The position numbers and the translations under genes were made by a program. Positions 14,956-62,570 of a stretch of 64,000 bases of DNA are shown one piece after another; the first letter of the stretch is position 1, and each line of letters opens with the position of its first letter. The notes below the pieces were generated by a model. It did no database searches and was not told where the DNA came from. It saw nothing but the letters and a program-made list of their open reading frames with translations. This stretch comes from Eledone cirrhosa (taxonomy: Eukaryota): positions 1 through 64,000 of the forward strand of contig CAXHJY010000838.1 of NCBI GenBank assembly GCA_964016885.1, read 5' to 3'.

Positions 14956-15018
14956 TTAACTAGTGAACCATTCTTGTTGTTCAGAGGATGTAATTTAAGA
15001 TGCAGCTACTATCTTTAA

Positions 15019-15239
15019 CCCTTCAGCACTTAAACTGGCCATATCCAGCCAGAATTCTCTCACCTCTTTCTGTTTAAATCAGCTGTAACTGGCCGTTTAT
15101 ACCTACATTAAAGTATTGTTCTCAAAATAAATAACATCAAAATCTCATAGATTTGATATTATGTGAGATAATTATGTAAGATAATGCCTTTACTGTGAAA
15201 ATACAATAGTATATATAGAGTAATGTAAATGCTAAAGGT
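15019..15239 (+). mobile_element. piggyBac-type MITE (~215 bp)
   Basis: TTAA flanks, CCCTTYAGCA..TA terminal inverted repeats; 11 copies in the window. Confidence 0.85.
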
Positions 15240-16238
15240 TTAACAAATTTATCAACCAGATAGAGAGTCCCTTCTTGGCTTATAATTTTAAAGTAAAAAG
15301 GTAAACAGTTGATGACCACATAGTTTTAGGGTTCAATACCACAGTATGACACTTTAAGCATGTGTTTTCTACTGTAATCTTGGGTTGACCAATGCCTTAT
15401 GAGAGGTCTTTGTTAGACTATGTGGAAGATTGTCATGTGTGTGCGTGTCTTTCATCAATTTATATACACCTTGAATATAAACATAGTTGAGAGAAAAGAA
15501 AAACAAAACACACACTCACTCACTGACAATGGTGCTTTACAAAGTTCCTTGCATCAAGCTTGGCACTTCCTTGTCATTTTTCACTGTCAGAAATGTAACA
15601 AGCCAGTGACTGACCTGTTACCAATCTGTAACCAATTATGCTATTGCGCAAAAACTGTGATAGAAAATACAAATAAATTATCCAGAACAAAACTAAATCT
15701 ATGTCAGCATATTAGTGTATTTCTAAATAGTTACATCAACACCTAGAAATGTTCATATTTTCTGTAAGTAAATTTCTTACAGAATGGTTATTTTAGTATA
15801 TGCAACTTTGCTATTTTCATGTATTCAGAAATCCTTCATAAATTTAGAAGTACATTTTAGATAAAACTTTGCATGTTACAGTGTATTCCTAACTATATAC
15901 TGGCATTCCATGGTCAAGTGATTCAGTTATGATGTTTATCAGTGGGGGCAGTGATGCAATCAGCTTTCAATCATAACATTTGAATGCCTGTGTATCTGAG
16001 TTTTGTCAAGTTCAGGAGTTCAGTGTGACATATTTACTGCTCAGGTGTGGTTTTCATGCAGAATGAAGAGCATTACCTAAAGTAATTTAACTGAAGATTG
16101 CTTCTAGTGAGAAACTTCTAGTAGTAATGTTATGTGGAATCTCTCATCCAGAAGTATATATTAATTCAATACAGTATTAAGTACTCTTTCCTTTGTTTCT
16201 AATAGAATATAATATAATACTATATATATATATATATA

Positions 16239-16606: not shown

Positions 16607-17230
16607 GAGGAATCAGATGTTGTTTACTCGAGAGAAGACTACGTTGGTACGGTCACGTGATGCGCATGAAAGACAAAAGCTGTATAAAGAAGTGCAGGGC
16701 GATAAAAATAGACGGTAGCCACGGAGTAGGCAGACCCAGAAAAACCTGGGACGACTTGATAAATTCCGACCTCACACACTTACACCTCTCCAAGACAATG
16801 TCACTGGACTGAGATCTTTGGCGCTACACAGTAATACAGAAGACCCGCCTTGCCTAAGTACAAAGCGAAACCTACAGTCAGTAGGCACCTCTAACAAAAT
16901 ACACCCCCGTCCCACTACCCCCACCCCATACACCACCCCTTTCAATGTAAAGTATGTTGGTACCACAACATCCAGTCCAAAATAAATGAGGTTGTGTAGG
17001 TGTCACGAAAAAAACACACAGTCCACGCTGTAATGTGGCCGTGTAGGTAACACAGTAAAAACCTCCCAGTCCCACACTGTAAACGTGGTTGGCGTTAGGA
17101 AGGGCATCCAGCCGTAGAAAACCCGCCAGATAGTCCTACATGAGCAAGACAACCAATCTTGCCTCAAGTGGGAAAACTCCCGTCCAAACCCATGCAAGTG
17201 TGGAAGATGGACGTTAAACGATGATGATGA
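16607..17230 (+). mobile_element. 5'-truncated RTE LINE (ORF C-terminus plus 3' UTR), decayed
   Basis: Translates RGIRCCLLERRLRWYGHVMRMKDKSCIKKC...GRPRKTW with an internal stop; GTTAGGAAGGGCATCCAGC UTR motif; (GAT)n tail. Confidence 0.92.
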
Positions 17231-17368: not shown

Positions 17369-17814
17369 CTCTCTCTCTCTCTCTCTCGAGAAAGAGAGAG
17401 AGCGAGAGTGAAAGAGAGAGAGGGAGGGGGAGATGGATGGATAAATGTCTTAGAATATTTGTTAACCCAGTAAAAACAAAGACAATTTATATCCACTTCT
17501 GCGTATCCAACACAGATTTCAAAACACTAGGCAAATATGTTCAAACTAATCAACATCGTTTAATCATTTAGCAGTTGACTTTTTCAAGGTCATATAAGTA
17601 TAGAAATCCCAGAAAAAGATTTTAGTCATTCCTATGGTGTCAGTTCCAGCTATGATTCATTATAACATTCTTATGAGTTGTCATAAGTTTATTTTATTTA
17701 TTTATTTATTTTTATTTTTTAATGAGGCAATGATCAGTATATTAATAAAAGCAATATAAGCCTTGGCTAAAATGTCTTTGAACAACTTGGTGACTTTCTA
17801 CACCATCACTTTAA

Positions 17815-18025
17815 CCCTTTAGCATTTAAACCAGCCATATCCGGCTAGAATTCTCTCACCTCTTTCTGTTCAAACCGGCTGTAACTGGTCACTTATGTTA
17901 AGGTATTGTTCTCAAAATAAATAATATCAAAATCTCATAGATTCAATATAATGTGAGATATTATGAGATAAAGCCTTTACAGCAAAAATGCAACGTATAT
18001 ATAGAGAAATGTAAATGCTAAAGGG
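17815..18025 (+). mobile_element. piggyBac-type MITE
   Basis: TTAA|CCCTTTAGCATTTA...TAAATGCTAAAGGG|TTAA perfect ends. Confidence 0.92.
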
Positions 18026-18907
18026 TTAAAGTTTTAAAGTAGAAGCTCTTCTGTCGTTGTACAACTACTATGTTGTAAATATTTTATATTTCCCCTACAA
18101 TATTTATTATTCCATTAAATATTTCCTATTTTATTGAGGTCCTGTTTCCTTAAAAAGTCTTCTATTTACTTCCTTAATAAATTAATATTTATATTCATCA
18201 CTTGTTTATTACAATTAACAATGATTTACATCATATGGCTTTCATCAAATTAATTTCAACCTTCTCTCTTAAAAAATATCTTGTTTACCATATCAACACT
18301 AAAATCCCTCAAGATTTGTTTTACAGCAGGCTCTTTAATTCTAATTTGTTATTTCAGCCTAAGATATATTTTAGCTGTACGTTCATTAGTTTAGCAAAGA
18401 TAACAGATTTTTATCAAAATAACTCAATTCTAAGTTTTGTTTGTAAATCTTAAAATAAAAATTGTTAGGAGGTCATATAAACATATTTATATAATTTTAT
18501 ATTTTAAGATATTGCAGAAGCAAAGTGAATAAAATGTCAGGCTCAAAGCTGAAAAGTTTGTGAGTTGATATTACATTAAGTGTTTCTATTTGATGCTCCC
18601 TGCAATAAATATACTGACACTAACTTAACTTATATTATGTGGCATAAAATACCCTCTGATATGCTTGGTAAACATAGAGTGAATGAATCACCATTAGAGC
18701 AACAAACTGTCTATATACAGCTGAGTGGTTTGGAGATAATCTCACATATAACTAAAATTATAGTCTGATTCACTGACTTCTAGCTTACAAACCACACACA
18801 ACTAGTTATATATCGTCAGTAAAAGACTTCCTTATGATATAGCTAAACTTTAACTAAAATAGGTTTATTTAACTTTTTTCAGGTATTATAAAATAGTTTT
18901 CCTTTAA

Positions 18908-19960: not shown

Positions 19961-19988
19961 TTACTAACAAATTCTAAATCCTTTTTAA

Positions 19989-20196
19989 CCCTTTAGCATT
20001 TAAACCGTCCATATTCGGCCAGAATTCTCTCAGCTCTTTCTGTTCAAACCAGCTGTAACCAGTCACTCATACTGATGTTAAGGTATTGTTCTCAAAATAA
20101 ATATCAAAATCTCATAGATTCGATATTATGTGAGATAATTATGTGAGGTAAAGCCTTTACCACGAAAACATAATAGTATATATAGAGTAATGTAAA
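19989..20196 (+). mobile_element. piggyBac-type MITE, right end truncated
   Basis: Intact TTAACCCTTTAGCATTTA left end and family body. Confidence 0.85.
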
Positions 20197-23777: not shown

Positions 23778-23995
23778 TTTAGCAATTAAACTGGATGTAT
23801 CCGGCCAGAATTCTCTCACCTCTTTCCGTTCAAACCAATTATAACTGACCCCTCACACCAACGTTAAGGCATTGTTCTCAAAATAAATAATATTAAAATC
23901 TCATAGATTCGATATTATATGAGATAATTATGTGAAATAAGGCTTTTATCATGAAAATATAATAGTAAATATAGAGTAATGTAAATGGTAAAGGG
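23778..23995 (+). mobile_element. piggyBac-type MITE, decayed ends
   Basis: Family body sequence. Confidence 0.8.
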
Positions 23996-24799
23996 TTTAT
24001 ACAAATTGTCAGGAGTTAGATATTGTCAATTTAACTGATCATAGTAATATTATTTTATCAACTCTAAAGTTGACATCTCAAGGAATTGAACCGTGTATAC
24101 CACAAGAATCTAGCTAATCATTTTACTATTTCCAAGAACCAACATCTTTAAAATTTCTAAAGAATTAAATTTTATTTCAAATTAAAATAAAAAATAAAAA
24201 AAACTCTTTTTATAGAAGATATTGATCCTTTTTATATAGTCTTTAAGTACCATCTGATTATATTTATAAAGGGACAGAATACTATCAGATTTATTATTAT
24301 AATGTTAAATTCTTATTCAAACAAAGTTTGGTTGTGAAGAGCAAATAATGTATTTGTCAAAGAAATTTGTCAGCTTCTAATGTGTTAAATAAAATTAATA
24401 GCAGAGATTAGCATAACTGGTCTGAGGCAGATTACTGTGTTGTACAAATAAATCACGGGAAGACACATTTGGGTAAACTCTTATTACCTTCTATAGGAAG
24501 ACAAGAAACCTAAAATTTCCAAAGATATTCTTCCAAAGATGTAGAGGATGTGATATAGATATCCATTTGAAGTGTATAAATGGATACTATTAGGAATTAA
24601 CACTTAGCTTATTAGTAAATATTTATTATCCTAGGCCTGTCCACTTGTGGTTGTATGACTGCCTCAAACGTTTAGTAAAACATGGTTTATGCCAGCAAGT
24701 CATACTCAATCACAAGTGATTGCTATAGTTACTACTCTGTGGTATTTTCCTGTAATATTGTAGGTAGACTATTGAAGATTAAATTAATACTAAGAATCT

Positions 24800-29049: not shown

Positions 29050-31160
29050 GATGTCAACAGTTTGTGTCAATAGGAGACATCAGAGAGAATAGCAACAATG
29101 GGAAGTGTCATTATGGTAGGATCATTATGGTAGGATCAAGGGTAAAAGAAACATCAATAAGTGTCAACAATATGACAATAACTGTGAACCCCAGGGTAGG
29201 CTCAACCATAATAAGTCGTAATCAACATCAGAATAAGATCAACTGCAATAGTTGTCAACATATGTATAGTGACAACAGTGTGTCAACTTCAGTGTAGGGT
29301 CAACAGCAGGTGTTAAAATCAGTGTAGGATCAACAAGTGTGTTAACATCAGGGTAAGATCAACAACAGGTGTCAATATTGAGGTAGGATCAACAACAGTG
29401 TGTCAACATCAAGGTAGGATGAACAACAGTGTGTCAACATCAAGGTAGGATGAACAACAGTGTGTCAACATCAAGGTAGGATCAACAACAGTGTGTCAAC
29501 ATCAAGGTAGGATCAACAACAGTGTGTCAACATCAAGGTAGGATCAACAACAGTGTGTCAACATGAAGGTAGGATCAACAACAGTGTGTCAACATCAGGG
29601 TAGGATCAACAACAGTGTGTCAACATCAAGCTAGGATGAACAACAGTGTGTCAACATTAGGGTAGGATGAACAAGTGTGTCAACATCAAGGTCGGATGAA
29701 CAACAGTCTGTCAACATCAAGGTAGGATCAACAACAGTCTGTCAACATTAGGGTAGGATGAACAACAGTGTGTCAACATCAAGGTAGGATGAACAACAGT
29801 GTGTCAACATCAGGGTAGGATGAACAACAGTGTGTCAACATCAAGGTAGGATCAACAACAGTGTGTCAACATCAAGGTAGGATCAACAACAGTGTGTCAA
29901 CATCAGGGTAGGATCAACAACAGTGTGTCAACATCAAGGTAGGATCAACGACAGTGTGTCAACATCAAGGTAGGATCAACAACAGTGTGTCAACATCAAG
30001 GTAGGATCAACAACAGTGTGTCAACATCAAGGTAGGATCAACAACAGTGTGTCAACATCAAGGTAGGATCAACAACAGTGTGTCAACATCAAGGTAGGAT
30101 CAACAACAGTGTGTCAACATTAGGGTAGGATGAACAACAGTGTGTCAACATTAGGGTAGGATGAACAACAGTGTGTCAACATCAAGGTAGGATCAACAAC
30201 AGTGTGTCAACATCAAGGTAGGATCAACAACAGTGTGTCAACATCAGGGTAGGATGAATAACAGTGTGTCAACATCAAGGTAGGATGAACAACAGTGTGT
30301 CAACATCAAGGTAGGATCAACAACAGTGTGTCAACATCAAGGTAGGATCAACAACAGTGTGTCAACATCAAGGTAGGATCAACAACAGTGTGTCAACATC
30401 AAGGTAGGATGAACAACAGTGTGTCAACATCAAGGTAGGATGAACAACAGTGTGTCAACATTAGGGTAGGATGAACAACAGTGTGTCAACATTAGGGTAG
30501 GATGAACAACAGTGTGTCAACATTAGGGTAGGATGAACAACAGTGTGTCAACATTAGGGTAGGATGAACAACAGTGTGTCAACATTAGGGTAGGATGAAC
30601 AACAGTGTGTCAACATCAAGGTAGGATGAACAACAGTGTGTCAACATCAAGGTAGGATAAACAACAGTGTGTCAACATCAAGGTAGGATGAACAACAGTG
30701 TGTCAACATCAGGGTAGGATCAGCAACAGTGTGTCAACATCAGGGTAGGATCAACAACAGTGTGTCAACATCAGGGTAGGATCAACAACAGTGTGTCAAC
30801 ATCAGGGTAGGATCAACAACAGTGTGTCAACATTAGGGTAGGATGAACAACAGTGTGTCAACATCAAGGTAGGATGAACAACAGTGTGTCAACATCAGGG
30901 TAGGATGAACAACAAGGTAAGATCAACAATAGTGTCTCAACATCAGTGTAGGATCAACAACTGCAAGTCTCAACATCAGAGTAAGATCAATGACAATAAA
31001 TATGAACATTGGGGCAGGATCAACAGAACAGATGTAAACATTAGAATGAGAATAGCAGATGATGCAGATGTCAATGTTAGATTGTCAGCAGAAGGATAAC
31101 AGAACTGTTTACAATCGGTAACTGTAGGAATAAGTCAACATGAGGGATCAACAGCACTGT
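29050..31160. repeat. 31-bp tandem satellite; homogeneous core ~29397-30912 (~49 units) with degenerate flanks
   Basis: Unit AGTGTGTCAACATYARGGTAGGATSAACAAC. Confidence 0.95.
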
Positions 31161-31618
31161 GTTCATAAAACCTAACAAAAAACAAGCTACCAAACAGTTT
31201 GTTAAGACATATATGCCAACAAAAAAGGACAAAATAATTTGAATGGTGACACATCATATCAGCTTTTTATCAACTGATGCTGTCAACATTTATGCAGGGC
31301 AATAAGTCGACAAAATGAAAGAAAGGAATTTGTGATGTACTAACATCATAGAATTAGCTGAAGTCTGAACAATTTATAGTTCATTTTGTCACTTATTTAT
31401 ATAAGTCATTCTATACAACAATGCTGTGTGTATCCAGTTTAAAATAATTACACCATAACATTATATCACAGCATATCGTAAGAATTGACTAAATGTGTTG
31501 GCATTAGAAAGGACATTCAACCAATAAAACACTATCTCAAGAATAACTTTACAATGAGTATGAAGCTTGTCGTGGAACCATGAAGCTGTTACCTGCTTAG
31601 TAAGGAAAATAGCCTTAA

Positions 31619-31825
31619 CCCTTTAGCATTTACATTACTCTATATATACTAATATATTTTCACGGTAAAGGCTTTATCTTACATAATTATCTCGCATAAT
31701 ATCGCATCTATGGGATTCTGATATTATTTATTTTGACATCAATATGAGCTGCTGGTCATAGCCGGTTTGAATATAAAGAGGAGAGAGAATTCAGGCCAGA
31801 TACAGCCAGTTTAAACGCTAAAGGG
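31619..31825 (-). mobile_element. piggyBac-type MITE
   Basis: TTAACCCTTTAGCATTTA...TAAACGCTAAAGGG. Confidence 0.85.
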
Positions 31826-32254
31826 ATAAAATGCTTGTATTCCATACTACAATGAGTTTTTTTCCTTTCTTGCATTTGCTAATGTATTGATGTTTAAAAT
31901 ATTCGAACTACAATAATTCAGCCATAAAGTACGAATGGTACATTGTCTTAGGTTTTGTAATTGCCCTTATTGTTGATACCAGTTTACCAAGTACACAACA
32001 TGCTCATTCTTGTTTGACAAGGCAATACAAAAATTATAAACAATAAAAAAAAAAGGGACAATACATGTAGAATTGTTTGAAGATGTTACTAGTACAATGA
32101 CAATTTAGATAATGTCCCAGAGGACACTGGTAAATCATCTTAGACAATCTTAGCAAAGAAACCACAGGTGACCGAGATAAACAAAACTCAAAGGATACTG
32201 ATAAAACAAACTTGGATAGCATCATTAAAGCAACTTAATGTAGACTAATGAGCC

Positions 32255-37515: not shown

Positions 37516-38307
37516 TATATATATATACACACACACTATCTGAATACAACATATTGGATGGTTACAGCTCAGGGTTAACCAACAACAACTGTTTTCCTTT
37601 ATATTGTGGTACATACAAGACAATAATAATAATGTGTCCAAAAGTACAATAAAGGTCTTATGTCAAAAATTGAATTGGTCTACCAACTTAATGGCATAGA
37701 GCCACTTCTGGTTTATAAGATAAAAATAAAATTATAACTTAATGCTGTAAATAAGTTAGAAAGAATATGCTACATATTTGAAAAAAATGAATAAAAGGCA
37801 CTGAAAATGAAAAACAAATAAGAGAATTCATAAGATAATTGGCTAAAAAATGGAGATGTAAACAAACAGTTAAAGAAGTTGAAGAATAACTGGAAGGCAG
37901 AATCAGAGAAGAAAGAGTGGAAGAAACTAAGATGAAAGAGAGAAAATTACATAAACAAAGGAAAAAGGAATTGTTTTAGTGTAAAGACAACTTCAAAACA
38001 GTTAGAGCTTCTAAGTTCATATTAATGGGAAAACAACTTCAAATGATTTAAAAATAAGTTTCGGCTAAATTTCTTTTTTTATTAAAGTTATTAAGTTTAA
38101 GCAAGATGACTACAATGAGAAAAATACTGCAAGACTTGCCAAGGCCATCTGCTTAGGAGGCAGGCAGGTAATGCCAATATCTAAATTAGAGAGCTTTGGA
38201 TAATACAGAGAAATGAAGATTAAACAGAAGTTTGCTACATATTGAACAAAATCATTGAGATATTTGATATCCCTGTCTTTATATTCACACACACATAAAC
38301 ACATTAA

Positions 38308-38530
38308 CCCTTTAGCATATAAACTGGCCATATCCAGCAAGAATTCTCTCACCTCTTTCTGAAGAATTCAAACCAGCTGTAACCAGCCACTCATTCATGT
38401 TAATGAATTGTTCTCAATATAAATAATATCAACATCTCATAGATTCAATATTATGTGAGATAATTATATGAGGTAAACCCTTTACTATAAAATATAATTG
38501 TAAATATAGAGTAATGTAAATGCTAAAGGG
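38308..38530 (+). mobile_element. piggyBac-type MITE
   Basis: TTAA flanks and both TIRs. Confidence 0.9.
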
Positions 38531-38744
38531 TTAAAAAGCCGAACTGTCATTAAAGGCACTGTTGAATGATTTAAAAGAAATCGTTTAACAGAAAATATCT
38601 AAAAATGGATGTCTTAATTTAAATCTTTATATCTATTTTATAGTATATATTTTTCAAGAATGTTTTGCTAATGCAGTTTCTTGCAGCACAGGATGTGGAG
38701 AGTTAAGGAGGAGCACAGGATGTGGAGAGTTAAGGAGGAATTAA

Positions 38745-39925: not shown

Positions 39926-41331
39926 TGTAACAAATAACCAAACTGAGCCTAAAGCATTCCGGCTGTAATTTCATTGGACAAGTCATGCTACTGATGTTCT
40001 ACTAATAGCTGGCTTGTAAGAAGTGATATGAAAATATATTTAAGAACTGACATAAAGGGAGGAAAAAAACCAAACTCCAAACTTTTAAGTATAACAGCAA
40101 AGACCTGTATGAATAAGAAAATGTCCTATAATATCTCCTTCATTCTCGCCCTCTCTTTTGCTCTCATTTGGAATGCAAAAACTATTTGTCTGTCACATAT
40201 TGAAGTAGGATGATTAGGTTTATTAAAGTGACCAATATGGGTCATAGTGAGAATTAAAAAAAAAAAAAAAGAGTTCCACTCTTAAACAGTAGTTTGTTCT
40301 CTTTGTTAGTCTATCTTGCTACAAAATAAATAGATTGAGGTCCCTATAAATAGACTGGAATCCCTATAAATAGATTTAAAACGGCCTTTTTAGATATTAT
40401 TTAATAACACATTTTATGCGTGAATAAGAGTGAATTATAGAGAGAGAGTGAGGGATGGCGAGATAAGAGAAAGAAAGTGAGCAAAAGAGGGTGAGGAATG
40501 GAGAGATAAGAGAAAGAAAGTGAACAGAAGAAAAAGGAATCCATTCTGTGCTGGCTGAAGTATATTGATTAGTATTTTTCTTTCTGCAAGGTGTAAGGAT
40601 ATTTGTTGGGGAGGTGGATAGACAATTGAATCAACTCAATGTATTTTTGTACATATTTTATTGTATCAGAGTGGCTTCCAAGGTTTGAAAGAAGTCCTAC
40701 TAATAGATGGATTCTGGTTGGAATACAAAAGCATTCTAAACAGTATATGTATAAAACTATAAAATATAAAAAAGACTGTCAATATGACTGATTGGTAAAC
40801 ATTCATAGCCAACATTAAATTACTGGCTCACTAATCTACTGTATCCTCTCCTTGTGTTGTCTGTTGCTACTACAATGTTTTCTGGCCCAATGAACTAACA
40901 AACTGTTTACAGCTTCTCTCAAAGTCACACAATACACTCACATGCCAAATACTCTCTAGAAGCCATACAGTTATCTCTAACTCCACTCTCCTGTACTAGC
41001 ACTTTCCTAAAGCTCATGCAATACACCTGTCTGTCACCATCAACCTTGCAGATCCCTGTACAAAACACTTTTCCCAAACTCCCATTTTATACCTGTAGCA
41101 TCATAGATCTCTCTTCTTGCCCACATTTTTCCTCCATACATCAATATCAGCTTTACCAAAGATAAGTAATATATATATATATTGTTATACTTGGGGAGGG
41201 TCATATTGTTGTAATAATATTGCAAGAAATAATAACAGAACACACTCACTGTTTGGTTGGTTTTCGCTTCTGTATCTTATATATCTCCACAGTTAATTCA
41301 TTTGGTCCTCAATGTTTATCATTGACTGACC

Positions 41332-43646
41332 CGGGGGGAGCAGGGTACACGGGGGGAGCAGGGTACATTACATAGAGACCAAGAGGGAAGCTAGGCGACA
41401 AGTATACTTAGCTAGGAGGGAAGCAGAGGATAGAAAATTCAAGCATGTTTTACAACGTGAGGACCAGAAACAGGAGGTATTCAAGATTGCGAGGCAGTGT
41501 GTCAGAGATAGTTGTGATGTCATTGGAGAGAAGTGTATCCGGAATGATAAAGGTGAGCTTGCCCTCACAAGTGCTGAGAAGAAAGATGCATGGAAGAGTC
41601 ATTATGATAGATTACTAAATGAGGAGAATGCATGGGAAGAAGAGACCCTACCCCACGTAGACCCTATAGAGGGACCAGCAGTACAAGTCAGCGGCAGCGT
41701 AGTAAGTAAGGCAATCAGAGATATGAAGATAGGGAAGGCAACCGGTCCTTCGGGTATAGCTGCCGAGATGCTGAAGGCATCTGGGTCTGTAGGTCACACT
41801 ATAACCACACGTATTGTTAACCAGGTAATACTAGAGGGGGCCATACCAAAAGATTGGTGCAGTAGCATCATTGTCAACTGCTACAAAGGTAAAGGCGATG
41901 CACTAGATAGAGGAAACTATAGAGGTATAAAGTTGATGGACCAGGTCATGAAAGTAACAGAAAGAGTTATAGCACAGCTGATTAGGGACCGGGTGAATAT
42001 AGACGAGATGCAATTTGGGTTTGTACCAGGGAAAGGCACCACTGATGCGCTCTTCCTTGTGAGGCAATTACAGGAAAAGTACCTAGCTAAAAGTAAGCCA
42101 CTCTACTTGGCATTTGTCGACCTTGAGAAAGCCTTTGACAGAGTTCCACGTGCAGTAATCTGGTGGGCTCTTAGAAAACTAGGAGTAGATGAATGGCTTG
42201 TGAAAGCGGTACAAGCCATGTATAGGGGAGCAGTCAGCAAAGTTAGGATTGGCAATGAGTATAGCGAGGAATTTAGCGTACAGGTTGGGGTCCACCAGGG
42301 CTCTGTTCTTAGCCCTCTCCTGTTCATCATAGTCCTGCAGGCAATAACGGAGGAGTTTAAGACCGGATGCCCATGGGAACTCCTGTATGCTGATGACCTC
42401 GCACTCATAGCTGAATCTATGGTAGAACTAGAGAATAAATTCCAAACCTGGAAGCAGGGACTAGAGAGAAAGGGCCTCAAAGTCAACATGACAAAGACTA
42501 AGGTCCTTATAAGTAGACGAGAAAACAGAACCCAGATCCCCTCAGGGAAATGGCCTTGCTCAGTATGTAGGAAAGGTGTAGGTAGGAACTCCATTCTTTG
42601 CCCCAAATGCAAACAATGGGTACACAAGAGATGTAGCGGGATCTCAGGAAGCTTAATTAAGAATGTAGGATTCACATGCAGCAGCTGTGCTGAAACAGCA
42701 AGCAAACAGCCACAGGAAACAAGTACCACCAATCTCTGGGAGGGCCCTGTAGAAACAGTAGACAGCTTCTGCTACCTAGGTGACCGAATTAGCAACGGAG
42801 GTGGGTGCTCAGAAAGTACAATAACTAGGGTAAGAACGGGATGGAAGAAGTTTAGGGAACTACTACCACTGCTAGCTGCAAAAGGCTTCTCCCTCAGAAT
42901 GAAAGGCAGACTGTATGATGCGTGTATCCGAACAGCGATGTTGCATGGTAGTGAGACCTGGGCGCTGAAGGTGGAAGACTTACGTAGATTAGAGAGAAAC
43001 GAAGCCTGCATGCTCCGATGGATGTGTAACAGTAATATACGTGAACGACAAAGCATAAATGAATTGAGAGAGAGACTGAGCATAAGAGGAATCAAATGCT
43101 GCGTGCAGGAGAGGCGGTTACGCTGGTATGGACATGTGATGCGTATGAAGGATGACAGCTGCATAAAAAGGTGCAGAGCACTAGAAGTTGATGGAAACCG
43201 CGGAGTGGGGAGACCCAAGATGACTTGGGATGAAGTGATAAAAGCCGACCTTACCCAACTACACCTCTCAAAGTCAATGACACACGACCGTGACTTCTGG
43301 CGTCACGCAGTAATACAGGGTACCCGACCTCCCATGGGTACATGCTGAAGCATATAAACAATATGCCCCCCCCCCCCCACCGCAAGGTGGTCGTGGAGGT
43401 GCCACGGCAAAAAAGCACCCAGCCCACACTGTAAAGTGGACGTGTAGGCGCCACGAAAAAGCACCCAGCACTCACTGTAAATGAGGTTGGTGTTAGGAAG
43501 GGCATCCAGCTGTAGAAATCAAGCCAGATCAGTTCCTGTATGAGCAAGGCATGGTCAGCCGACCAGACACTGCCCACAACAGGACAACCCGTCTAACCCA
43601 TGCTAGCGTGGAAGAACGGACGTGAAACGGTGATGATGATGATGAT
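41332..43646 (+). mobile_element. Young 5'-truncated RTE-clade LINE
   Basis: Uninterrupted frame, 3' UTR and (GAT)n tail; lacks the APE endonuclease. Confidence 0.95.
41351..43348 (+). CDS. LINE reverse transcriptase ORF (5'-truncated; open upstream of the Met at 41723)
   Basis: Motifs KATGPSG, NYRGIKL, QFGF, FVDLEKAFD, GVHQGSVLSPLLF, YADD, FCYLG, RRLRWYGHVMRM, GRPKMTW. Confidence 0.93.
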   Translation, partial: GGSRVHYIETKREARRQVYLARREAEDRKFKHVLQREDQKQEVFKIARQCVRDSCDVIGEKCIRNDKGELALTSAEKKDAWKSHYDRLLNEENAWEEETLPHVDPIEGPAVQVSGSVVSKAIRDMKIGKATGPSGIAAEMLKASGSVGHTITTRIVNQVILEGAIPKDWCSSIIVNCYKGKGDALDRGNYRGIKLMDQVMKVTERVIAQLIRDRVNIDEMQFGFVPGKGTTDALFLVRQLQEKYLAKSKPLYLAFVDLEKAFDRVPRAVIWWALRKLGVDEWLVKAVQAMYRGAVSKVRIGNEYSEEFSVQVGVHQGSVLSPLLFIIVLQAITEEFKTGCPWELLYADDLALIAESMVELENKFQTWKQGLERKGLKVNMTKTKVLISRRENRTQIPSGKWPCSVCRKGVGRNSILCPKCKQWVHKRCSGISGSLIKNVGFTCSSCAETASKQPQETSTTNLWEGPVETVDSFCYLGDRISNGGGCSESTITRVRTGWKKFRELLPLLAAKGFSLRMKGRLYDACIRTAMLHGSETWALKVEDLRRLERNEACMLRWMCNSNIRERQSINELRERLSIRGIKCCVQERRLRWYGHVMRMKDDSCIKRCRALEVDGNRGVGRPKMTWDEVIKADLTQLHLSKSMTHDRDFWRHAVIQGTRPPMGTC

Positions 43647-44045: not shown

Positions 44046-44210
44046 AATACATTGGCTTAAATAGTGTTAGATACATGAAAAGGTAGCATGATAATTACTA
44101 GAATGTGTTTGATAATAGGCCTGTTTAAGCAGAGTTGACGTGAGATTAAACAACAAACATTTCATCAAAGCCATGAGCACTACATTGCTTCATTAGATAG
44201 AATAATTTAA

Positions 44211-44417
44211 CCCTTTAGCATTTAATCCGGCCAGAATTCTCTCACATCTTTCTGGTCAAACCAGCTGTAACCAGATGCTCATACTGATATTAAGGTATTG
44301 TTCTCAAAATAAATAACATGAAAATCTCATAGATTCGATATTATGCGAGATATTTATGTGAGGTAAAACCTTTACCATGAAAATATATAAATATAAAGTA
44401 ATGCAAATTGTAAAGGA
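44211..44417 (+). mobile_element. piggyBac-type MITE
   Basis: TTAA flanks; right TIR decayed. Confidence 0.85.
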
Positions 44418-45013
44418 TTAAAAGAAAAAAATTCTCTATAAGCTAGTAAAAATAAGTGTAATCAACCATATCTATTTGATTGTGTGTGTTGCTTGTATGT
44501 AATAACATTTGTGAGCTGGGAACCAGTCTCTACACACAACCTGTATTCAGGACATGGATCAATTGGCAGGGCTAAGTGAGATGAGTGTAACTGAGGACTG
44601 ACTTTAACTACATAGCTTCTTCAAGAATATGTGGACTAGAAGAACATTTACAATGTAACATTTACAATACAATGCTCCTTCTCCTTGTCCTTGTGATAGT
44701 AAGCATTATATACCCAAGGCTCTATTATTCAGTTAAGTGGAATAAGTCAGCAAGTATCTCAGCCATTAAGACAGTGCAGTATCAAAGACTGGAATACACA
44801 CGGCTGACGTTTTGACAAGTAGTACAACATCATAACATACTCAGCTATGATTCTACAGTAGGGAAAATAGGTAGACATTGAAAAACTTTCTGTCAGAATG
44901 CAGTCAACTATTTGAATTTGCAGACCAGATAAACCCATATTCCGTATGAGAGAGGGAAAAAAAGGGGGTGGATAGAAATGTCATAAAATTTATTTTATAT
45001 ATATATATATATA

Positions 45014-45835: not shown

Positions 45836-48850
<3,015 letters not shown>

Positions 48851-49156
48851 ATACAGAGAGAGAGAGAGAGAGGTGGATGTAAGAGAGAGAGAGAGAGGTG
48901 GATGTAAGAGAGAGAGAGAGAGAGGTGGATGTAAGAGAAAGAAAAAGAAGTGAGACTGAGTGAAAGAATGAAAAAGATAGGAGCTGCAGAAAGAGAAAGA
49001 CTAAAACTAAGACAGTTGCTAAATAAATGGAAAAAAAAAACAAAAAAAAACAGAGAGCAAGGGAGTTTAATGAGTGGGTGTATATTTATTTATTTGTGGA
49101 TGCAAGACAAGAAGAAAGAGAAAAAGTGGGAGAATTAAAGATAGCATGTGTGAGTC

Positions 49157-50361: not shown

Positions 50362-50944
50362 TTCTAGATGATATAGGAAAGGTGCTGCTCATCTAACAGA
50401 ACTAAAGAAACAAAGTTTCCATCAATCTTTCCATTGCTGATACTACTTGCTGGTCACAACTCCTGCCAGGAGTAATGTGAATCAAAGTATTGTATTTTGC
50501 TCCAGAACACAAAGAGACTCCTGGTCAAGGAATCAAACCCTTGACCTTATGATCATGAGTCCAACACTTTAACCACTAGACAACATAACTGGCTTTTAAT
50601 TCATAGAACTGATGAATAACCATCTAAATATTAAGTGCCCAAAGCTCAAAACTAAAATATACTGAAACTTTTACACCTAAGTTTCCTGTTTGAGAGTTTA
50701 CTACTGGGTCATTAACCTACAATATATGTGTGGTAAGTAGATAGACTATAATATTACTAGATATTTATGATGGCAGAGTTGACAGTAATAAAACAAATCC
50801 AAATATGTTTAATTTGAAGCCTCCCTATTCCAAGATCTACAAGAAATAAAATGTGTACCAGTTATATACTAGGTTGGAGTTAATCGACTTTACTCATTCT
50901 ACAAAACATTTATATTGAGCAGGGTCGAATGAAATCAATATTAA

Positions 50945-53900
50945 CCCTTTAGCATTATTTACAATACTCTATATTTACTATTGTATTTTCACGGTAAACA
51001 AATAATATCAAATCTACGAAATTTTGATATTAAAATTTTTTTAAAACAATACCTTAACATAAGTATGAGCAACCAGTTACAACCAGTTTGAACAGAAAGA
51101 GGTGAGAGAATTCTGGCCAGATACTGCCAGTTTGAATAGAAGGAAGTGAGAGAATTGTGGTCGGATACGGCCGGTTTGAACAGAAAGAGGTGATAGAATT
51201 CTGGCTGGATAGGGCTAGTTTGAACATAAAGAGGTGATAGAATTCAGGCTGGATAGGGTTGGTTTGAACAGAAAGAGGTGAGAGAATTCTGGCTGGATAG
51301 GGTTGGTTTGAACAGAAAGAGGTGAGAGAATTCTGGCTGGATAGGACTGGTTTGAACAGAAAGAGGTGAGAGAATTCAAGCTGGATAGGGCTGGTTTGAA
51401 CAGAAAGAGATGAGAGAATTCTGGCTGGATAGGGCTGGTTTGAACAGAAAGAGGTGAGAGAATTCTGGCTGGATAGGGCTGGTTTGAACAGAAAGAGGTG
51501 AGAGAATTCAAGCTAGATAGGGCTGGTTTGAACAGAAAGAGGTGAGAGAATTCAAGCTAGATAGGGCTGGTTTGAACAGAAAGAGGTGAGAGAATGCAAG
51601 CTGAATAGGGCTGGTTTGAACAGAAAGAGATGAGAGAATTCTGGCTGGATAGGGCTGGTTTGAACAGAAAGAGGTGAGAGAATTCAAGCTGGATAGGGCT
51701 GGTTTGAACAGAAAGAGGTGAGAGAATTCTGGTTGGATAGGCTGGTTTGAACAGAAAGAGGTGAGAGAATTCAAGCTGGATAGGGCTGGTTTGAACAGAA
51801 AGAGATGAGAGAATTCTGGCTGGTTAGGGCTGGTTTGAACAGAAAGAGGTGAGAGAATTCTGGCTGGATAGGGCTGGTTTGAACAGAAAGAGGTGAGAGA
51901 ATTCAAGCTGAATAGGGCTGGTTTGAACAGAAAGAGATGAGAGAATTCTGGCTGGATAGGGCTGGTTTGAACAGAAAGAGGTGAGAGAATTCAAGCTGAA
52001 TAGGGCTGGTTTGAACAGAAAGAGGTGAGAGAATTCTGGCTGGATAGGCTGGTTTGAACAGAAAGAGGTGAGAGAATTCAAGCTGGATAGGGCTGGTTTG
52101 AACAGAAAGAGATGAGAGAATTCTGGCTGGTTAGGGCTGGTTTGAACAGAAAGAGGTGAGAGAATTCTGGCTGGATAGGGCTGGTTTGAACAGAAAGAGG
52201 TGAGAGAATTCAAGCTGAATAGGGCTGGTTTGAACAGAAAGAGATGAGAGAATTCTGGCTGGATAGGGCTGGTTTGAACAGAAAGAGGTGAGAGAATTCA
52301 AGCTGAATAGGGCTGGTTTGAACAGAAAGAGGTGAGAGAATTCTGGCTGGATAGGCTGGTTTGAACAGAAAGAGGTGAGAGAATTCAAGCTGGATAGGGC
52401 TGGTTTGAACAGAAAGAGATGAGAGAATTCTGGCTGGTTAGGGCTGGTTTGAACAGAAAGAGGTGAGAGAATTCTGGCTGGTTAGGGCTGGTTTGAACAG
52501 AAAGAGGTGAGAGAATTCTGGCTGGATAGGGCTGGTTTGAACAGAAAGAGGTGAGAGAATTCTGGCTGGATAGGGCTGGTTTGAACAGAAAGAGGTGAGA
52601 GAATTCTGGCTGGATAGGGCTGGTTTGAACAGAAAGAGGTGAGAGAATTCAAGCTGAATAGGGCTGGTTTGATCAGAAAGAGGTGAGAGAATTCTGGCTG
52701 GATAGGGCTGGTTTGAACAGAAAGAGGTGAGAGAATTCTGGCTGGATAGGGCTGGTTTGAACAGAAAGAGATGAGAGAATTCTGGCTGGATAGGGCTGGT
52801 TTGAACAGAAAGAGGTGAGAGAATTCTGGCTGGATAGGGCTGGTTTGAACAGAAAGAGGTGAGAGAATTCTGGCTGGATAGGGCTGGTTTGAACAGAAAG
52901 AGGTGAGAGAATTCTGGCTGGATAGGGCTGGTTTGAACAGAAAGAGGTGAGAGAATTCTGGCTGGATAGGGCTGGTTTGAACAGAAAGAGGTGAGAGAAT
53001 TCTGGCTGGATAGGGCTGGTTTGAACAGAAAGCGGTGAGAGAATTCAAGCTGGATAGGGCTGGTTTGAACAGTTAAGAGGTGAGAGAATTCTGGCTGGAT
53101 AGGGCTGGTTTGAACAGAAAGAGGTGAGAGAATTCTGGCTGGATAGGGCTGGTTTGAACAGAAAGAGGTGAGAGAATTCTGGCTGGATAGGGCTGGTTTG
53201 AACAGAAAGCGGTGAGAGAATTCAAGCTGGATAGGGCTGGTTTGAACAGAAAGAGGTGAGAGAATTCTGGCTGGATAGGGCTGGTTTGAACAGAAAGAGG
53301 TGAGAGAATTCTGGCTGGATAGGGCTGGTTTGAACAGAAAGCGGTGAGAGAATTCAAGCTGGATAGGGCTGGTTTGAACAGAAAGAGGTGAGAGAATTCT
53401 GGCTGGATAGGGCTGGTTTGAACAGAAAGAGGTGAGAGAATTCTGGCTGGATAGGCTGGTTTGAACAGAAAGAGGTGAGAGAATTCTGGCTGGATAGGGC
53501 TGGTTTGAACAGAAAGAGGTGAGAGAATTCTGGCTGGATAGGGCTGGTTTGAACAGAAAGAGGTGAGAGAATTCTGGCTGGATAGGGCTGGTTTGAACAG
53601 AAAGAGGTGAGAGAATTCTGGCTGGATAGGGCTGGTTTGAACAGAAAGAGATGAGAGAATTCTGGCTGGATAGGGCTGGTTTGAACAGAAAGAGATAAGA
53701 GAATTCTGGCTGGATAGGGCTGGTTTGAAGAGAAAGAGGTGAGAGAATTCTGGCTGGATAGGGCTGGTTTGAACAGAAAGAGGTGAGAGAATTCTGGCTG
53801 GATAGGGCTGGTTTGAAGAGAAAGAGATGAGAGAATTCTGGCTAGATAGGGCTGGTTTGAAGAGAAAGAGGTGAGAGAATTCTGGCTGGATAGGGCTGGT

Positions 53901-55419
53901 TTGAACAGAAAGAGGTGAGAGAATTCTGGCTGGATAGGGCTGGTTTGAACAGAAAGAGATGAGAGAATTCTGGCTGGATAGGGCTGGTTTGAAGAGAAAG
54001 AGATGAGAGAATTCTGGCTGGATAGGGCTGGTTTGAAGAGAAAGAGATGAGAGAATTCTGGCTGGATAGGGCTGGTTTGAAGAGAAAGAGGTGAGAGAAT
54101 TCTGGCTGGATAGGGCTGGTTTGAACAGAAAGAGGTGAGAGAATTCTGGCTGGATAGGGCTGGTTTGAACAGAAAGAGGTGAGAGAATTCAAGCTGGATA
54201 GGGCTGGTTTGAACAGAAAGAGGTGAGAGAATTTTGGCTGGATAGGGCTGGTTTGAACAGAAAGAGGTGAGAGAATTCTGGCTGGATAGGGCTGGTTTGA
54301 ACAGAAAGAGGTGAGAGAATTCTGGCTGGTTAGGGCTGGTTTGAACAGAAAGAGGTGAGAGAATTCTGGCTGGATAGGGCTGGTTTGAACAGAAAGAGGT
54401 GAGAGAATTCTGGCTGGATAGGGCTGGTTTGAACAGAAAGAGGTGAGAGAATTCTGGCTGGATAGGGCTGGTTTAAACAGAAAGAGGTGAGAGAATTCAA
54501 GCTGGATAGGGCTGGTTTGAACAGAAAGAGGTGAGAGAATTTTGGCTGGATAGGGCTGGTTTGAACAGAAAGAGGTGAGAGAATTCAAGCTGGATAGGGC
54601 TGGTTTGAACAGAAAGAGGTGAGAGAATTCTGGCTGGATAGGGCTGGTTTGAACAGAAAGAGGTGAGAGAATTCTGGCTGGATAGGGCTGGTTTGAACAG
54701 AAAGAGGTGAGAGAATTCTGGCTGGATAGGGCTGGTTTGAACAGAAAGAGGTGAGAGAATTCTGGCTGGATAGGCTGGTTTGAACAGAAAGAGGTGAGAG
54801 AATTCTGGCTGGATAGGGCTGGTTTGAACAGAAAGAGATGAGAGAATTCTGGCTGGTTAGGGCTGGTTAGGGCTGGTTTGAACAGAAAGAGGTGAGAGAA
54901 TTTTGGCTGGATAGGGCTGGTTTGAACAGAAAGAGGTGAGAGAATTCAAGCTGGATAGGGCTGGTTTGAACAGAAAGAGGTGAGAGAATTCTGGCTGGAT
55001 AGGGCTGGTTTGAACAGAAAGAGGTGAGAGAATTCTGGCTGGATAGGGCTGGTTTGAACAGAAAGAGGTGAGAGAATTCAAGCTGGATAGGGCTGGTTTG
55101 AACAGAAAGAGGTGAGAGAATTCTGGCTGGATAGGCTGGTTTGAACAGAAAGAGGTGAGAGAATTCTGGCTGGATAGGGCTGGTTTGAACAGAAAGAGAT
55201 GAGAGAATTCTGGCTGCTTAGGGCTGGTTTGAACAGAAAGAGATGAGAGAATTCTGGCTGCTTAGGGCTGGTTTGAACAGAAAGAGGTGAGAGAATTTTG
55301 GCTGGATAGGGCTGGTTTGAACAGAAAGAGGTGAGAGAATTCAAGCTGGAAAGGGCTGGTTTGAACAGAAAGAGGTGAGAGAATTCTGGCTGGATAGGGC
55401 TGGTTTAAATGCTAAAGGG
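50945..55419 (-). mobile_element. piggyBac-type MITE expanded by an internal satellite
   Basis: TTAA|CCCTTTAGCATT at 50941 and AATGCTAAAGGG|TTAA ending at 55423; normal body up to ~51083. Confidence 0.92.
51083..55406. repeat. 44-bp tandem satellite, ~98 units
   Basis: Unit CTGGTTTGAACAGAAAGAGGTGAGAGAATTCTGGCTGGATAGGG; ORF periodicity of 44 aa equals 3 units. Confidence 0.97.
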
Positions 55420-55489
55420 TTAAGGAATATCTATGAAAAAACAGTACTGAAATATTTATATAAAATTGATGTATGTGTTGTCTTATATA

Positions 55490-56980: not shown

Positions 56981-57176
56981 ACGCCTTTTGTATTTACATT
57001 ACTCTATATATTACTATTATATTTTCATTTTATCTCACATAATATCTAACCTATGAGATTTTGATATGTATTTTGAGAACAAACACTTAAAATAAGTATG
57101 AGCAGCTGGTTACGTCTGGTTTCAACAGAGGTGAGGGAATTCTTGTCGGATACTACCAGTTTAAATGCTAAAGAGG
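56981..57176 (-). mobile_element. piggyBac-type MITE, decayed
   Basis: Family body; TTTAAATGCTAAAG end. Confidence 0.75.
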
Positions 57177-57823
57177 TAAGTTAGATTTCTTTTCAGCCAA
57201 ACTGTTTTGGGGTTGGATTTTTTTTTTTGTCTTAATTATCATCTAAGAATCCTTTCTGTCTGTTAGTCTGTGTACAATCAAGTATAATGAGAATCGAGAC
57301 ATGGTAGACTAATAAAGATCTATAGCAAATATAGGAACTTAGATTGGATAAAAAAACAGTAACGGGTGACTTTTAAACCAGTTATATCTATGTTCTCTCC
57401 TAAAACACCTTTCTTGAAAATAAAACGCAATATGTTTCTCTTTCTAATTCTTCCCTCCTCTCTCTCTCTATATATATATCTATCTATATATATCTTCCCA
57501 TTTCTCTCTTTCTATTTCTTCAGCTCCTCTCTCTCTCCCCTTTCTCACTATCTATGTATCTCTTCCCATCTTCTCTCTCTCTTCCTCAGCAGCTAGGTTT
57601 GAAGAAGCTATACAAGAGGTTGCTCACACCAGCATACTAACACAGATCTGCACCAGAATGCTGAACAGGATATTATGAAAATAGAATAAGGATTTCCAAC
57701 TTTGGTGCACATCAACAAATTAGGTGGGAGACAAGCTATCTTAATCACCTCTACTTATTGAATGTTGTTCATCATATTGAGTATTATAGTAGAAGAGATA
57801 TATGAATGTCACATAATTGCTTT

Positions 57824-60500: not shown

Positions 60501-60506
60501 GTTTAA

Positions 60507-60711
60507 CCCTTTAGCATTTACATTACTATATATATACTATTGTATTTTCTCGGTAAAGGCTTTATCTCACATAATATCAAATCTATGAGATTTTGATATT
60601 TATTTTGAGAAAAATACCTTAACATCAGTATGAGTAGCAAGTTATGGCTGGTTTGAACAGAAAGAGGTGAGTAAATTCTGATCAAATACAACTGGTTTAA
60701 ATGCTAAAGGG
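60507..60711 (-). mobile_element. piggyBac-type MITE
   Basis: Perfect TTAACCCTTTAGCATTTA / TAAATGCTAAAGGGTTAA ends. Confidence 0.92.
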
Positions 60712-61939
60712 TTAATGATGCTGCTAATCAGATTCATCCCATTTTTAATTAGAGCTTTGAAATTTAAAAAAAAAACTGTGTCAGCAAAATTCTTTCAGCT
60801 TCCTGGGATCTTAGAGATAAAGCAACAATCAAACACTGGAATCAGTTTAATTGACTAATAATAGTGTCACCTGGGCTTCTTTAAATAAGAGACTATTGCT
60901 GAGAATCTCAAATGGATCTCTTTAAAGAGTGGATGGACAATGTGCACCCCTCCTTCCCTTACCACCTTAATATTCCAGTGAGGAGCAGCAAACCTCAGAT
61001 ATTATTAGCTCTAAAATATTTAATGATGGATTAATTCCACAAATCCTATAAATAACATTGAATAAATGAAAGGAAGAGAAGGTGGTGGTCGTGGTGGTGG
61101 TGGTCGTGGTGGTGGTGGTCGTGGTGGTGGTGGAGAAGACGACTCTTGACATCCAACAAAGATTAAGGTTTCTAAAAAAATGTTAGTACATGGGCAAATC
61201 GTTGTGAAAATTGCAGTATTAAAATAAAGAATTCAATTTCTAATGTGATGAAATCATAGCGCTGTACTGCTCATTACACTTTCTATAAATGTCTTGCTAA
61301 TGTGGTTTCATGTGGTACAGAACATTAGGAGTCATATCAGACACAAAGCTTTACAATTGAAACTGTTTATTAAAATAAACAGATTTCAGATGATCTAATG
61401 TAATAGAAAATTCAAGAATGAAATGAAATGAATACATGTTAAAATAATGTAATTGAGCTGAGATTGCATGAAAAATAGGACATCGAAAGAGAATAGAACG
61501 AACCTACTTGACTTTTTAAAAGTGTATGCCAATACAATATTAGTGCAAGAAAGCAATTTCTCTAAGCACATCCTCTAAGTAAGTGACACATGCATTGAAT
61601 GAGATTGTCTTGCACCGATCTAGTAAACAGAGTTAATATAGCACACATTGGCCATGGCTCTAAATATTGCAGGATTTCAAGATAATAACCATTGTCTTGT
61701 CAGAGTTGAGAAAATGTTTTAATTTCTGTTCATAACTGAGACTTCACAGATACACACCTTGTATTAAAATAAAGTAGGGTTGATGCTAAAGTGACAATGC
61801 TACCTTAATATATGTCAATTACTTTATCTTCACAGTTAGCTCTCAGTGATTAGCCTGTTGGAACTTTATTGTAGCACAAGTATGTAACAATGCTCACAAA
61901 TATATTGTATATAATATGACTGGAGGCAGTAATGTTACA

Positions 61940-62570
61940 AACTGTGTTGTGTTACAAGGTGAGGAAGAATGGAGATGGCTGTGTTACAATGTAAGGGTGA
62001 CTGCAATGAGCTGTGTTACATGTTGAGGACAGCTGAAGAGGGCTGTGTTACAGGGTGATGACAACTGGACAGAGCTGTGTTACAAGATGAGGACAATTGG
62101 CGTGAATTGTGTTTCAAAATGACAACAACTGGAGAGGAGGGGCCAAGGTTACAAACTGAAAACTGCTGAAGAGGGCTGTGTTACAGGATGAGGAGAGCTG
62201 GAGATGGTTGTGTTACAGGATGAGGAGAGCTGGAGATGGTTGTGTTACAGGGTGAGGAGAGCTGGAGATGACTGTGTTACAGGATGAGAACAGCTGGAGA
62301 GGGCTGTGTTACAGAATGAGAACTTCTGGAGAAGGCTGTGTTACAGGTTAGGACTGCAAAAGAGGGCTGTGTTACAGGGTTAGGACTGCAAAAGAGGGCT
62401 GTGTTACAGGGTTAGGACTGCAAAAGAGGGTTGTGTTACAAGCTGAGGACTGATGGAAAGGGCTGTTACAAGATGAGGACAACTGGAGAGTATTGTGTTA
62501 CAGGGTGAGGACTTCTGGAAAGAGTTATGTTACAAGATGAGGACCCTTGGAGAGAGCTGTCTTACAAGCT
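61940..62570. repeat. Degenerate 32-bp minisatellite, ~19 units
   Basis: TGTGTTACAGGATGAGGAGAGCTGGAGATGGT and variants. Confidence 0.88.

What the first reader, a model, noticed from the sequence alone, without database searches (positions are those of the whole stretch)
50941..55423. Satellite DNA caught being born inside a single MITE
Seen: a ~215-bp piggyBac-type MITE inflated to ~4.5 kb by ~98 copies of a 44-bp subterminal segment, with both TIRs and both TTAA sites retained. Unexpanded sister copies show the seed: GGCCGGTTT occurs twice exactly 44 bp apart (19041 and 19085), matching the unit length. The first units resemble the ancestral MITE (CTGGCCAGATAC, CGGATACGGCCGG), while later ones share a derived GGATAGGGCTGG. 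Established: MITE-internal arrays are a known source of satellites in molluscs and insects. Inference: microhomology-seeded duplication, then polar amplification. The element may remain mobilisable and multiplies a putative transposase-binding subterminal motif.
Basis: partly seen in the sequence, partly recalled or inferred. Interest (0 to 1): 0.72.

Follow-up and report, generated by a model that had tools for sequence, protein, structure and literature searches.

The report
Old minisatellite inside a piggyBac-type MITE
A 44-base piece of a very common miniature jumping element is repeated 98 times between the element's own ends; it likely began as an old slip between two built-in 22-base repeats and likely grew in place much later, which is an already described way for short tandem repeats to arise, and nothing found here shows a new satellite spreading.

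Summary
There are 98 units of 44 bp (51086-55402) inside a TTAA-flanked element with CCCT termini, and ten unexpanded sisters lie in the window. The seed is larger than stated: a CpG-restored family form has a 22-bp direct repeat (20 of 22 identical) at lag 44. Contigs of two organisms hold other tandem junctions at a 44-bp period whose letters are absent from this array, so the seed has likely fired repeatedly.

'Caught being born' is not supported. The family is old here (sisters 83% alike pairwise). Units 1, 2 and 3-98 share no derived change, so the first duplications are likely about as old as the insertion; only the 3' lineage expanded later. Polarity is confined to units 1-6. The seed palindrome is broken in the amplified unit and the left TIR carries 3 extra bases, which argues against a multiplied binding motif or mobility. 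By size it is a minisatellite.

Close precedents are Xstir/Xmix, miDNA4, DTC84 and the short-direct-repeat model of minisatellite origin. Not tested: empty site, array length in reads, autonomous partner, host identity. One weak new lead: the amplified unit gained a two-tetrad G4-like motif.

The parts
50941..50944 (.). left TTAA target site
   Evidence: sequence
50945..50956 (+). left TIR, 12 bases perfect; the family TIR is 14 bases and this copy has 3 extra bases after about base 12
   Evidence: (table 4)
50957..51070 (+). AT-rich body of the MITE, shortened by internal deletion relative to sisters; with unit 1, 8.0% non-CpG divergence from the restored family form
51071..51092 (+). left copy of the 22-bp direct repeat (seed), all four CpG positions decayed to CpA
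51086..51129 (+). unit 1: three changes from the restored unit, all at CpG positions
51130..51173 (+). unit 2: five non-CpG changes, all three CpGs kept, seed hairpin still predicted
51174..51349 (+). units 3-6: derived lineage with 8 rare changes; old edge of the array
51350..55402 (+). units 7-98: homogenised array, on average 1.2 differences per 44 bp from the majority unit
51745..52446 (+). higher-order repeat of 7 units (307 bp): units 16-24 equal units 23-31
   Evidence: lag 7: 13 matches against 1.96 expected, 0 of 2000 shuffles
55388..55409 (+). right copy of the seed, of the derived type, overlapping the right TIR by 4 bases
55406..55419 (-). right TIR, 14 bases, identical to the family majority
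55420..55423 (.). right TTAA target site
15015..15242 (-). unexpanded sister copy
17811..18028 (-). unexpanded sister copy
19985..20196 (-). unexpanded sister copy, left end lost
23778..23998 (-). unexpanded sister copy, right end damaged
31616..31828 (+). unexpanded sister copy
38304..38533 (-). unexpanded sister copy
44207..44420 (-). unexpanded sister copy
56981..57178 (+). unexpanded sister copy, decayed
60504..60715 (+). unexpanded sister copy

Best explanation
This is a 98-unit, 44-bp tandem array between the TTAA-flanked ends of an abundant piggyBac-type MITE; it likely arose in place, first by early slippage or unequal exchange between the MITE's own two 22-bp direct repeats and likely much later by expansion of one decayed unit. 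Shown: the ends, the units, the sisters, and the variant pattern. Inferred step 1: while the element was young and its two seeds nearly identical, mispairing at lag 44 gave at least three units. Inferred step 2: these aged separately, each losing different CpGs. Inferred step 3: the unit nearest the right TIR, by then CpG-free, expanded to 96 copies by local single-unit and multi-unit duplications (7-unit blocks among them), leaving units 1-6 stranded at the left edge. The result behaves like an ordinary, probably length-variable minisatellite in a probably immobile shell, one of several such arrays in this family.
For: Restored family form: best self-match at lag 44, score 16; 0 of 200 shuffles reach it (maximum 12); 20 of 22 bases identical. 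Unit 2, which was not in the alignment, shows the inferred CpG that none of 9 informative sisters retains, supporting the reconstruction. Array junctions read GTTTGAA, the left-seed form, and the terminal one GTTTAAA, the right-seed form, as a crossover inside the seed predicts. Units 1, 2 and the majority differ from the restored unit by 3, 5 and 3 changes with none shared; sisters differ by 4.8-10.9% at non-CpG sites, mean 7.2%. Units 7-98 differ from their majority by 1.2 of 44 bases. Two variants are locally clustered (p=0.002 and p<0.0002) and lag 7 is enriched. Of the 12 joint rows displayed in table 5c (191 more not shown), 5 imply a period of exactly 44 and 1 a period of 45, in runs of two organisms; their junction motifs GATATG, GATATT and GGTTAC occur 0 times in this array. 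One of them (X4, 51117 to 51076) crosses over earlier in the seed, which points to an independent event. The mechanism is in print (Haber and Louis 1998 as summarised in PMC6947457, passages).
Against: The star-like pattern of units 1, 2 and 3-98 also fits recombination among three different family copies. Unit 2 is odd: three intact CpGs with five other changes, a state none of the ten sisters shows. TTAA is invariant, so matching target sites do not prove one insertion. No run other than X4 covered the single-copy part of the left flank, so no empty or unexpanded allele was seen. The joints come from short contigs; table 5c does not state their kind or locus, and reading them as tandem junctions is my inference from the period. 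Ages rest on ten sisters and 44-bp units, so they are rough.
Confidence: 0.7

Rival explanations
1. Hybrid of neighbouring insertions: recombination between the seeds of two or three nearby same-direction copies deleted the DNA between them and joined their units, so the two ends belong to different insertions; the 3' unit then expanded. A related fusion model is in print for Xstir.
For: 11 copies in 64 kb give close partners. Units 1, 2 and 3-98 share no derived change. Unit 2's CpG state differs from its neighbours. TTAA cannot tell insertions apart.
Against: It needs two such events for three lineages, against slippage in one element. Other junctions at a 44-bp period, 15-28 times the flank depth in X4, suggest that tandem duplication at this register is common.
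Confidence: 0.15
2. One reading: a young satellite riding a still mobile MITE, or one member of a dispersed expanded subfamily that transposes as a unit and seeds free arrays.
For: Terminal 12 bases and both TTAA are perfect. Other tandem junctions exist in two organisms. Xstir and miDNA4 occur both inside MITEs and as arrays (PMC12628747, passages). If the host is an octopus (recalled, not shown), recently active piggyBac families are reported in O. vulgaris (PMC13282606).
Against: All ten sisters are 86-93% identical to their majority; none is young. The left TIR has a 3-bp insertion and the seed palindrome next to the right TIR is broken. The other junctions have different letters. In X4 the summed depth at 51238 is about 69 times the flank depth, the order of this one array and not of thousands of units (weak, since the tool says summed depth is no copy number and contigs fit several places).
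Confidence: 0.1
3. The element is real but the array length is an assembly error.
For: X4 holds only 0.64 of the sampled words.
Against: 29 unit types with local clusters and a 7-unit block, in which even the one-base deletion recurs at units 15, 22 and 29. The window has no N, and a 3-kb AT run is assembled through.
Confidence: 0.05

Closest known systems
Xstir repeats inside Xmix (T2-A1), Xenopus (PMC6004289 and PMC12628747, passages; the original Hikosaka and Kawahara 2004 paper not seen)
   Same: An internal segment of a very abundant TTAA-targeting MITE is amplified into a tandem array within the TIRs.
   Different: Xmix has AGGRR termini (Kolobok type); this one has CCCT termini. Xstir is a large family found also as free arrays; that is not shown here. 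The proposed Xstir origin is fusion of two nearby elements; here a built-in direct repeat explains the unit.
miDNA4 of Xenopus tropicalis (Scalvenzi and Pollet 2014, seen only through PMC12628747 and PMC9659126, passages)
   Same: A MITE carrying one monomer or a variable array; short direct repeats flanking the monomer are proposed to drive the change.
   Different: Tc1/mariner family; the monomer is thought captured, with repeats of 5 or more bases. Here the monomer is native to the MITE and the seed is about 22 bp.
DTC84 of the clam Donax trunculus (PMC3879986; abstract and Discussion read)
   Same: Ordered unit variants inside a mobile element, and a palindrome at the unit junction.
   Different: Up to five cores (about 160 bp), putative AA target duplication, pearl/Helitron-like build. 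Here 98 units of 44 bp, TTAA, and the palindrome is lost in the amplified unit.
TE-derived minisatellites from short flanking direct repeats (Haber and Louis 1998; Alu and B1 cases; seen through PMC6947457 and PMC9659126, passages)
   Same: The same mechanism: first duplication between short direct repeats in a high-copy element, later expansion; 7276 human minisatellites are counted as TE-derived.
   Different: The hosts cited there are mostly retroelements, with seeds of 5-10 bp.
piggyBac-like elements with subterminal direct repeats, structural groups SG3 and SG4 (PMC5381638, passages); coral CMITEs (PMC2872659, passages)
   Same: TTAA target, TIR of 12-19 bp starting CCCT, direct repeats of 12-42 bp that may overlap the TIR and may be palindromic.
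   Different: Those groups are defined on transposase-bearing elements. No transposase partner was found here. CMITE arrays repeat the whole element.

Membership tests
piggyBac superfamily, non-autonomous | TTAA at both ends | tested here: met
   This copy, and 6 of 10 sisters at both ends.
piggyBac superfamily, non-autonomous | TIR of 12-19 bp beginning CC[C/T]T | tested here: met
   Family TIR 14 bp beginning CCCT; 12 bp perfect in this copy (definition).
piggyBac superfamily, non-autonomous | TTAA is a true duplication (empty site has one TTAA) | tested here: inconclusive
   Only X4 covered the single-copy left flank; no empty allele was seen.
piggyBac superfamily, non-autonomous | An autonomous element with the same ends and a DDD transposase | not testable with these tools
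   No genome is held. No transposase hit among 120 of 649 window frames scanned in Pfam.
MITE | Short, non-coding, TIR-bounded, high copy number | tested here: met
   201-241 bp; 11 copies in 64 kb; 16945 records of X4 and 21368 of X1 laid on the 702-base stretch.
Kolobok / T2-MITE | TTAA target with RR (AGGRR) terminus | tested here: not met
   The terminus is CCC (definition).
Minisatellite | Short dispersed array of up to about 100 units, unit longer than 6-10 bp | tested here: met
   98 units of 44 bp (definition, which notes no consensus on thresholds).
Minisatellite (VNTR) | Unit number varies between individuals | not testable with these tools
   No spanning reads were available.
Satellite DNA | Very long arrays or high genomic abundance, often heterochromatic | tested here: inconclusive
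   4.3 kb here. X4 depth at 51238 is about 69 times the flank depth, a weak sign against high abundance of this junction. The genome could not be searched.
Mobilisable element | Intact ends, young copies, insertion polymorphism | tested here: inconclusive
   Outer 12 bases intact, but 3 extra bases in the left TIR, decayed seeds and no young sister among 10. Polymorphism not tested.

The most novel reading that the evidence does not exclude
This MITE family, with perhaps hundreds of thousands of copies, is a genome-wide nursery of minisatellites: many independent 44-bp arrays have been born at the same built-in seed in at least two species, and which ones run away is set by CpG decay. Here three changes at CpG positions turned a hairpin palindrome into a two-tetrad G-quadruplex-like motif (four GG runs at 71 of 98 junctions, 0 of 20 seed positions in sisters). 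If so, the family is a naturally replicated experiment on what turns a two-unit seed into a long array.
Probability: 0.15. Interest if true: 0.62.

Novelty: new member of a known kind. Interest (0 to 1): 0.3.

Why it matters
As it stands it is a clean teaching case: seed, stranded early units, late expansion and a higher-order block can all be read in one locus beside ten unexpanded sisters. The process is known. It would matter more if the family-wide recurrence holds, because many arrays from one seed would let one test which unit variants expand, how often arrays leave their shell, and whether CpG loss or G4 potential predicts length.

Tried and rejected
No whole genome is held, so no search for other expanded copies, free arrays or a transposase. 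Metagenome scan for the tandem junction: 0 hits. Scan for the right end: 1 hit, a 21-base chance match in a bacterial-looking locus with no further likeness. Runs X1, X2 and X7 had no depth on 50584-50847, so no orthologous or empty site; the small shares of X1-X3 (0.05-0.18) are not used as evidence of orthology. Host identity: a homologue search with the window's reverse transcriptase named no close host (best 120 of 2449 listed, 48-61% identity); that the landscape looks like an octopus genome is recalled only. Rfam: 0 matches in the window. Pfam on 120 of 649 frames: only the LINE frame passed curated cut-offs. A gradient along the whole array was tested and not found. A stable fold of the amplified unit was not found (z -0.21 and -0.16). 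Kolobok rejected on termini. Earlier findings: nothing by sequence, place or long word list; one search listed 8 of 319, those shown concerning prokaryote-type repeats, none bearing on this locus. Literature searches showed no description of this family or array in their listings; the library lacks most subscription journals, Repbase and Dfam were not available, and the O. vulgaris repeat library on Zenodo was not seen, so it may already be catalogued.
Full report
Observation. The element spans 50941-55423 with TTAA at both ends, and the ends are reverse complements over 16 bases. TRF finds period 44, 98.1 copies, 94% matches. My parse gives 98 units of 29 types, 35 of them one type, with 92 EcoRI sites. 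Ten unexpanded sisters of 201-241 bp lie in the window; 6 of 10 keep TTAA at both ends, and the family TIR is 14 bp starting CCCT. One X4 contig matches 50560-50986 without a difference; X4 may be the source sample, so this is not independent. No whole genome is held, and I did not establish the host. The window holds a LINE-type reverse transcriptase frame, and no host gene or transposase among the 120 of 649 frames scanned.

The family. It is very abundant: 11 copies in 64 kb, and 16945 records of X4 and 21368 of X1, a run of another organism, were laid on 702 bases. Summed depth on the element reaches about 400,000 times the flank depth, which the tool warns is no copy number. It is old in this window: sisters are 86-93% identical to their majority and 83% pairwise, with 4.8-10.9% non-CpG divergence and roughly four in ten CpG positions changed. 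TTAA plus a CCCT terminus fit piggyBac as defined in PMC2872659 and PMC5381638 (passages), and not Kolobok or T2-MITE (PMC6004289, passages). The autonomous partner could not be sought.

The seed. Restoring CpGs where sisters show the complementary TG and CA decay products gives a form whose best self-match is at lag 44: 20 of 22 bases, score 16, above all 200 shuffles. Each seed holds the palindrome GGCCG-N4-CGGCC; both seeds of the 19-kb sister fold as small hairpins. The right seed overlaps the right TIR. Direct repeats of 12-42 bp that overlap the TIR or are palindromic are a known feature of piggyBac-like ends, and their role in binding is stated to be undemonstrated. Array junctions end in the left-seed form and the last unit in the right-seed form, which places the crossover inside the seed.

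History. Against the restored unit, unit 1 has three changes (all at CpG, two to CpA), unit 2 has five (none at CpG), and the majority has three (all at CpG, two to TpG); none is shared. I infer that three units existed before the CpGs decayed, so the first duplications are about as old as the insertion. Units 3-98 all descend from one decayed unit and hold only 3 CpGs in total. Units 7-98 differ from their majority by 1.2 of 44 bases, so most of the growth is much younger. Rare changes are concentrated in units 3-6 (8 events, p=0.00009), not in the last four (p=0.21), and units 7-98 show no trend (p=0.10). Two of seven tested variants cluster locally, the two commonest are spread end to end, and a 7-unit block is repeated. 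This is a stranded left edge with mixed turnover elsewhere, not growth from one end. Against this reading: unit 2's three intact CpGs are matched by none of the ten sisters, and a hybrid of different copies would give the same star-like pattern.

Recurrence. Table 5c shows 12 joints (191 more hidden). Five imply a period of 44 and one of 45; the others imply 42, 42, 49, 54, 56 and 83. The 44- and 45-bp forms use motifs absent from this array, lie at 15-28 times the flank depth in X4, and one switches earlier in the seed. Raw reads of X7 also show a joint going back 42 bases near the left end (47 reads, 12 starts). I read these as independent tandem duplications in other copies, in two organisms. 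Their loci and lengths are unknown.

Mobility and motif. The outer 12 bases are perfect, but this copy has 3 extra bases in the left TIR, the left seed has lost all four CpGs, and the majority unit keeps 2 of 5 palindrome pairs and has no stable fold. So what was multiplied is a decayed motif. Mobility is not excluded, but nothing here supports it.

A weak lead, found after the fact. The three derived changes leave four GG runs without the competing hairpin. The motif is at 71 of 98 junctions with a G4Hunter-type score of 1.12 in the majority unit, against 0 of 20 sister seed positions, one of them truncated by a deletion (highest score 0.76). G4-forming minisatellites can be unstable (PMC2673046, search listing and start of abstract only). 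Against it: two-tetrad motifs are marginal (my knowledge), the commonest variant (22 units) removes the first GG run, and some of the other tandem junctions lack a run.

Comparison. Tandem arrays from internal MITE segments are in print for Xstir/Xmix and miDNA4 (PMC12628747 and PMC9659126, passages) and DTC84 (PMC3879986, abstract and Discussion). The Xstir model already predicts one-way expansion. Origin from short flanking direct repeats is the standard minisatellite model, and up to about 100 units is minisatellite size (PMC6947457, passages). PMC13282606 (parts 1-2 of 3 and a supplement search) lists piggyBac and satellite families in O. vulgaris without describing such an element; it bears on this only if my recalled impression of an octopus host is right. 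Eight searches listed no description of this family, but repeat databases were not available.

Verdict. A real and unusually legible case of a known process: new member of a known kind, interest 0.3. The empty site, the true array length, other loci and the transposase partner remain open.

Noticed in passing
window 51130-51173: Unit 2 keeps all three CpGs yet has five other changes; none of ten sisters keeps all three. It may come from another copy.
   Followed up: partly
window 51071-51129: Six of the seven CpG positions in the left seed and unit 1 decayed to CpA (one to CpT), while the amplified unit decayed to TpG; the strand bias is unexplained.
   Followed up: no
window 50957-50998: Reads of X7 and contigs of X1 show a 42-bp joint going back in the left subterminal region, suggesting a second tandem-prone register in this family.
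   Followed up: partly
window 51112: 984 molecules of RAD run X7 end at the family's GAATTC site, so the library seems to be EcoRI-cut and this MITE supplies many of its tags.
   Followed up: no
window 29272-30914: A second minisatellite, 31 bp by 53 copies, 94% matches, with degenerate units fading out on both sides and no match elsewhere in the window.
   Followed up: partly
window 41330-43348: Uninterrupted 672-codon LINE-type frame with reverse transcriptase and PHD domains; best relatives about 60% identical. Related fragments near 16609 and 24794.
   Followed up: partly
window 45837-48853: A 3-kb AT-dinucleotide tract about 2 kb upstream of the element.
   Followed up: no
window 61946-62568: A 32-bp repeat of 19 copies with 64- and 96-bp higher periods.
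   Followed up: no
window 54822-54875: Unit 86 carries a 10-bp internal duplication, a new micro-slip inside the seed region.
   Followed up: no
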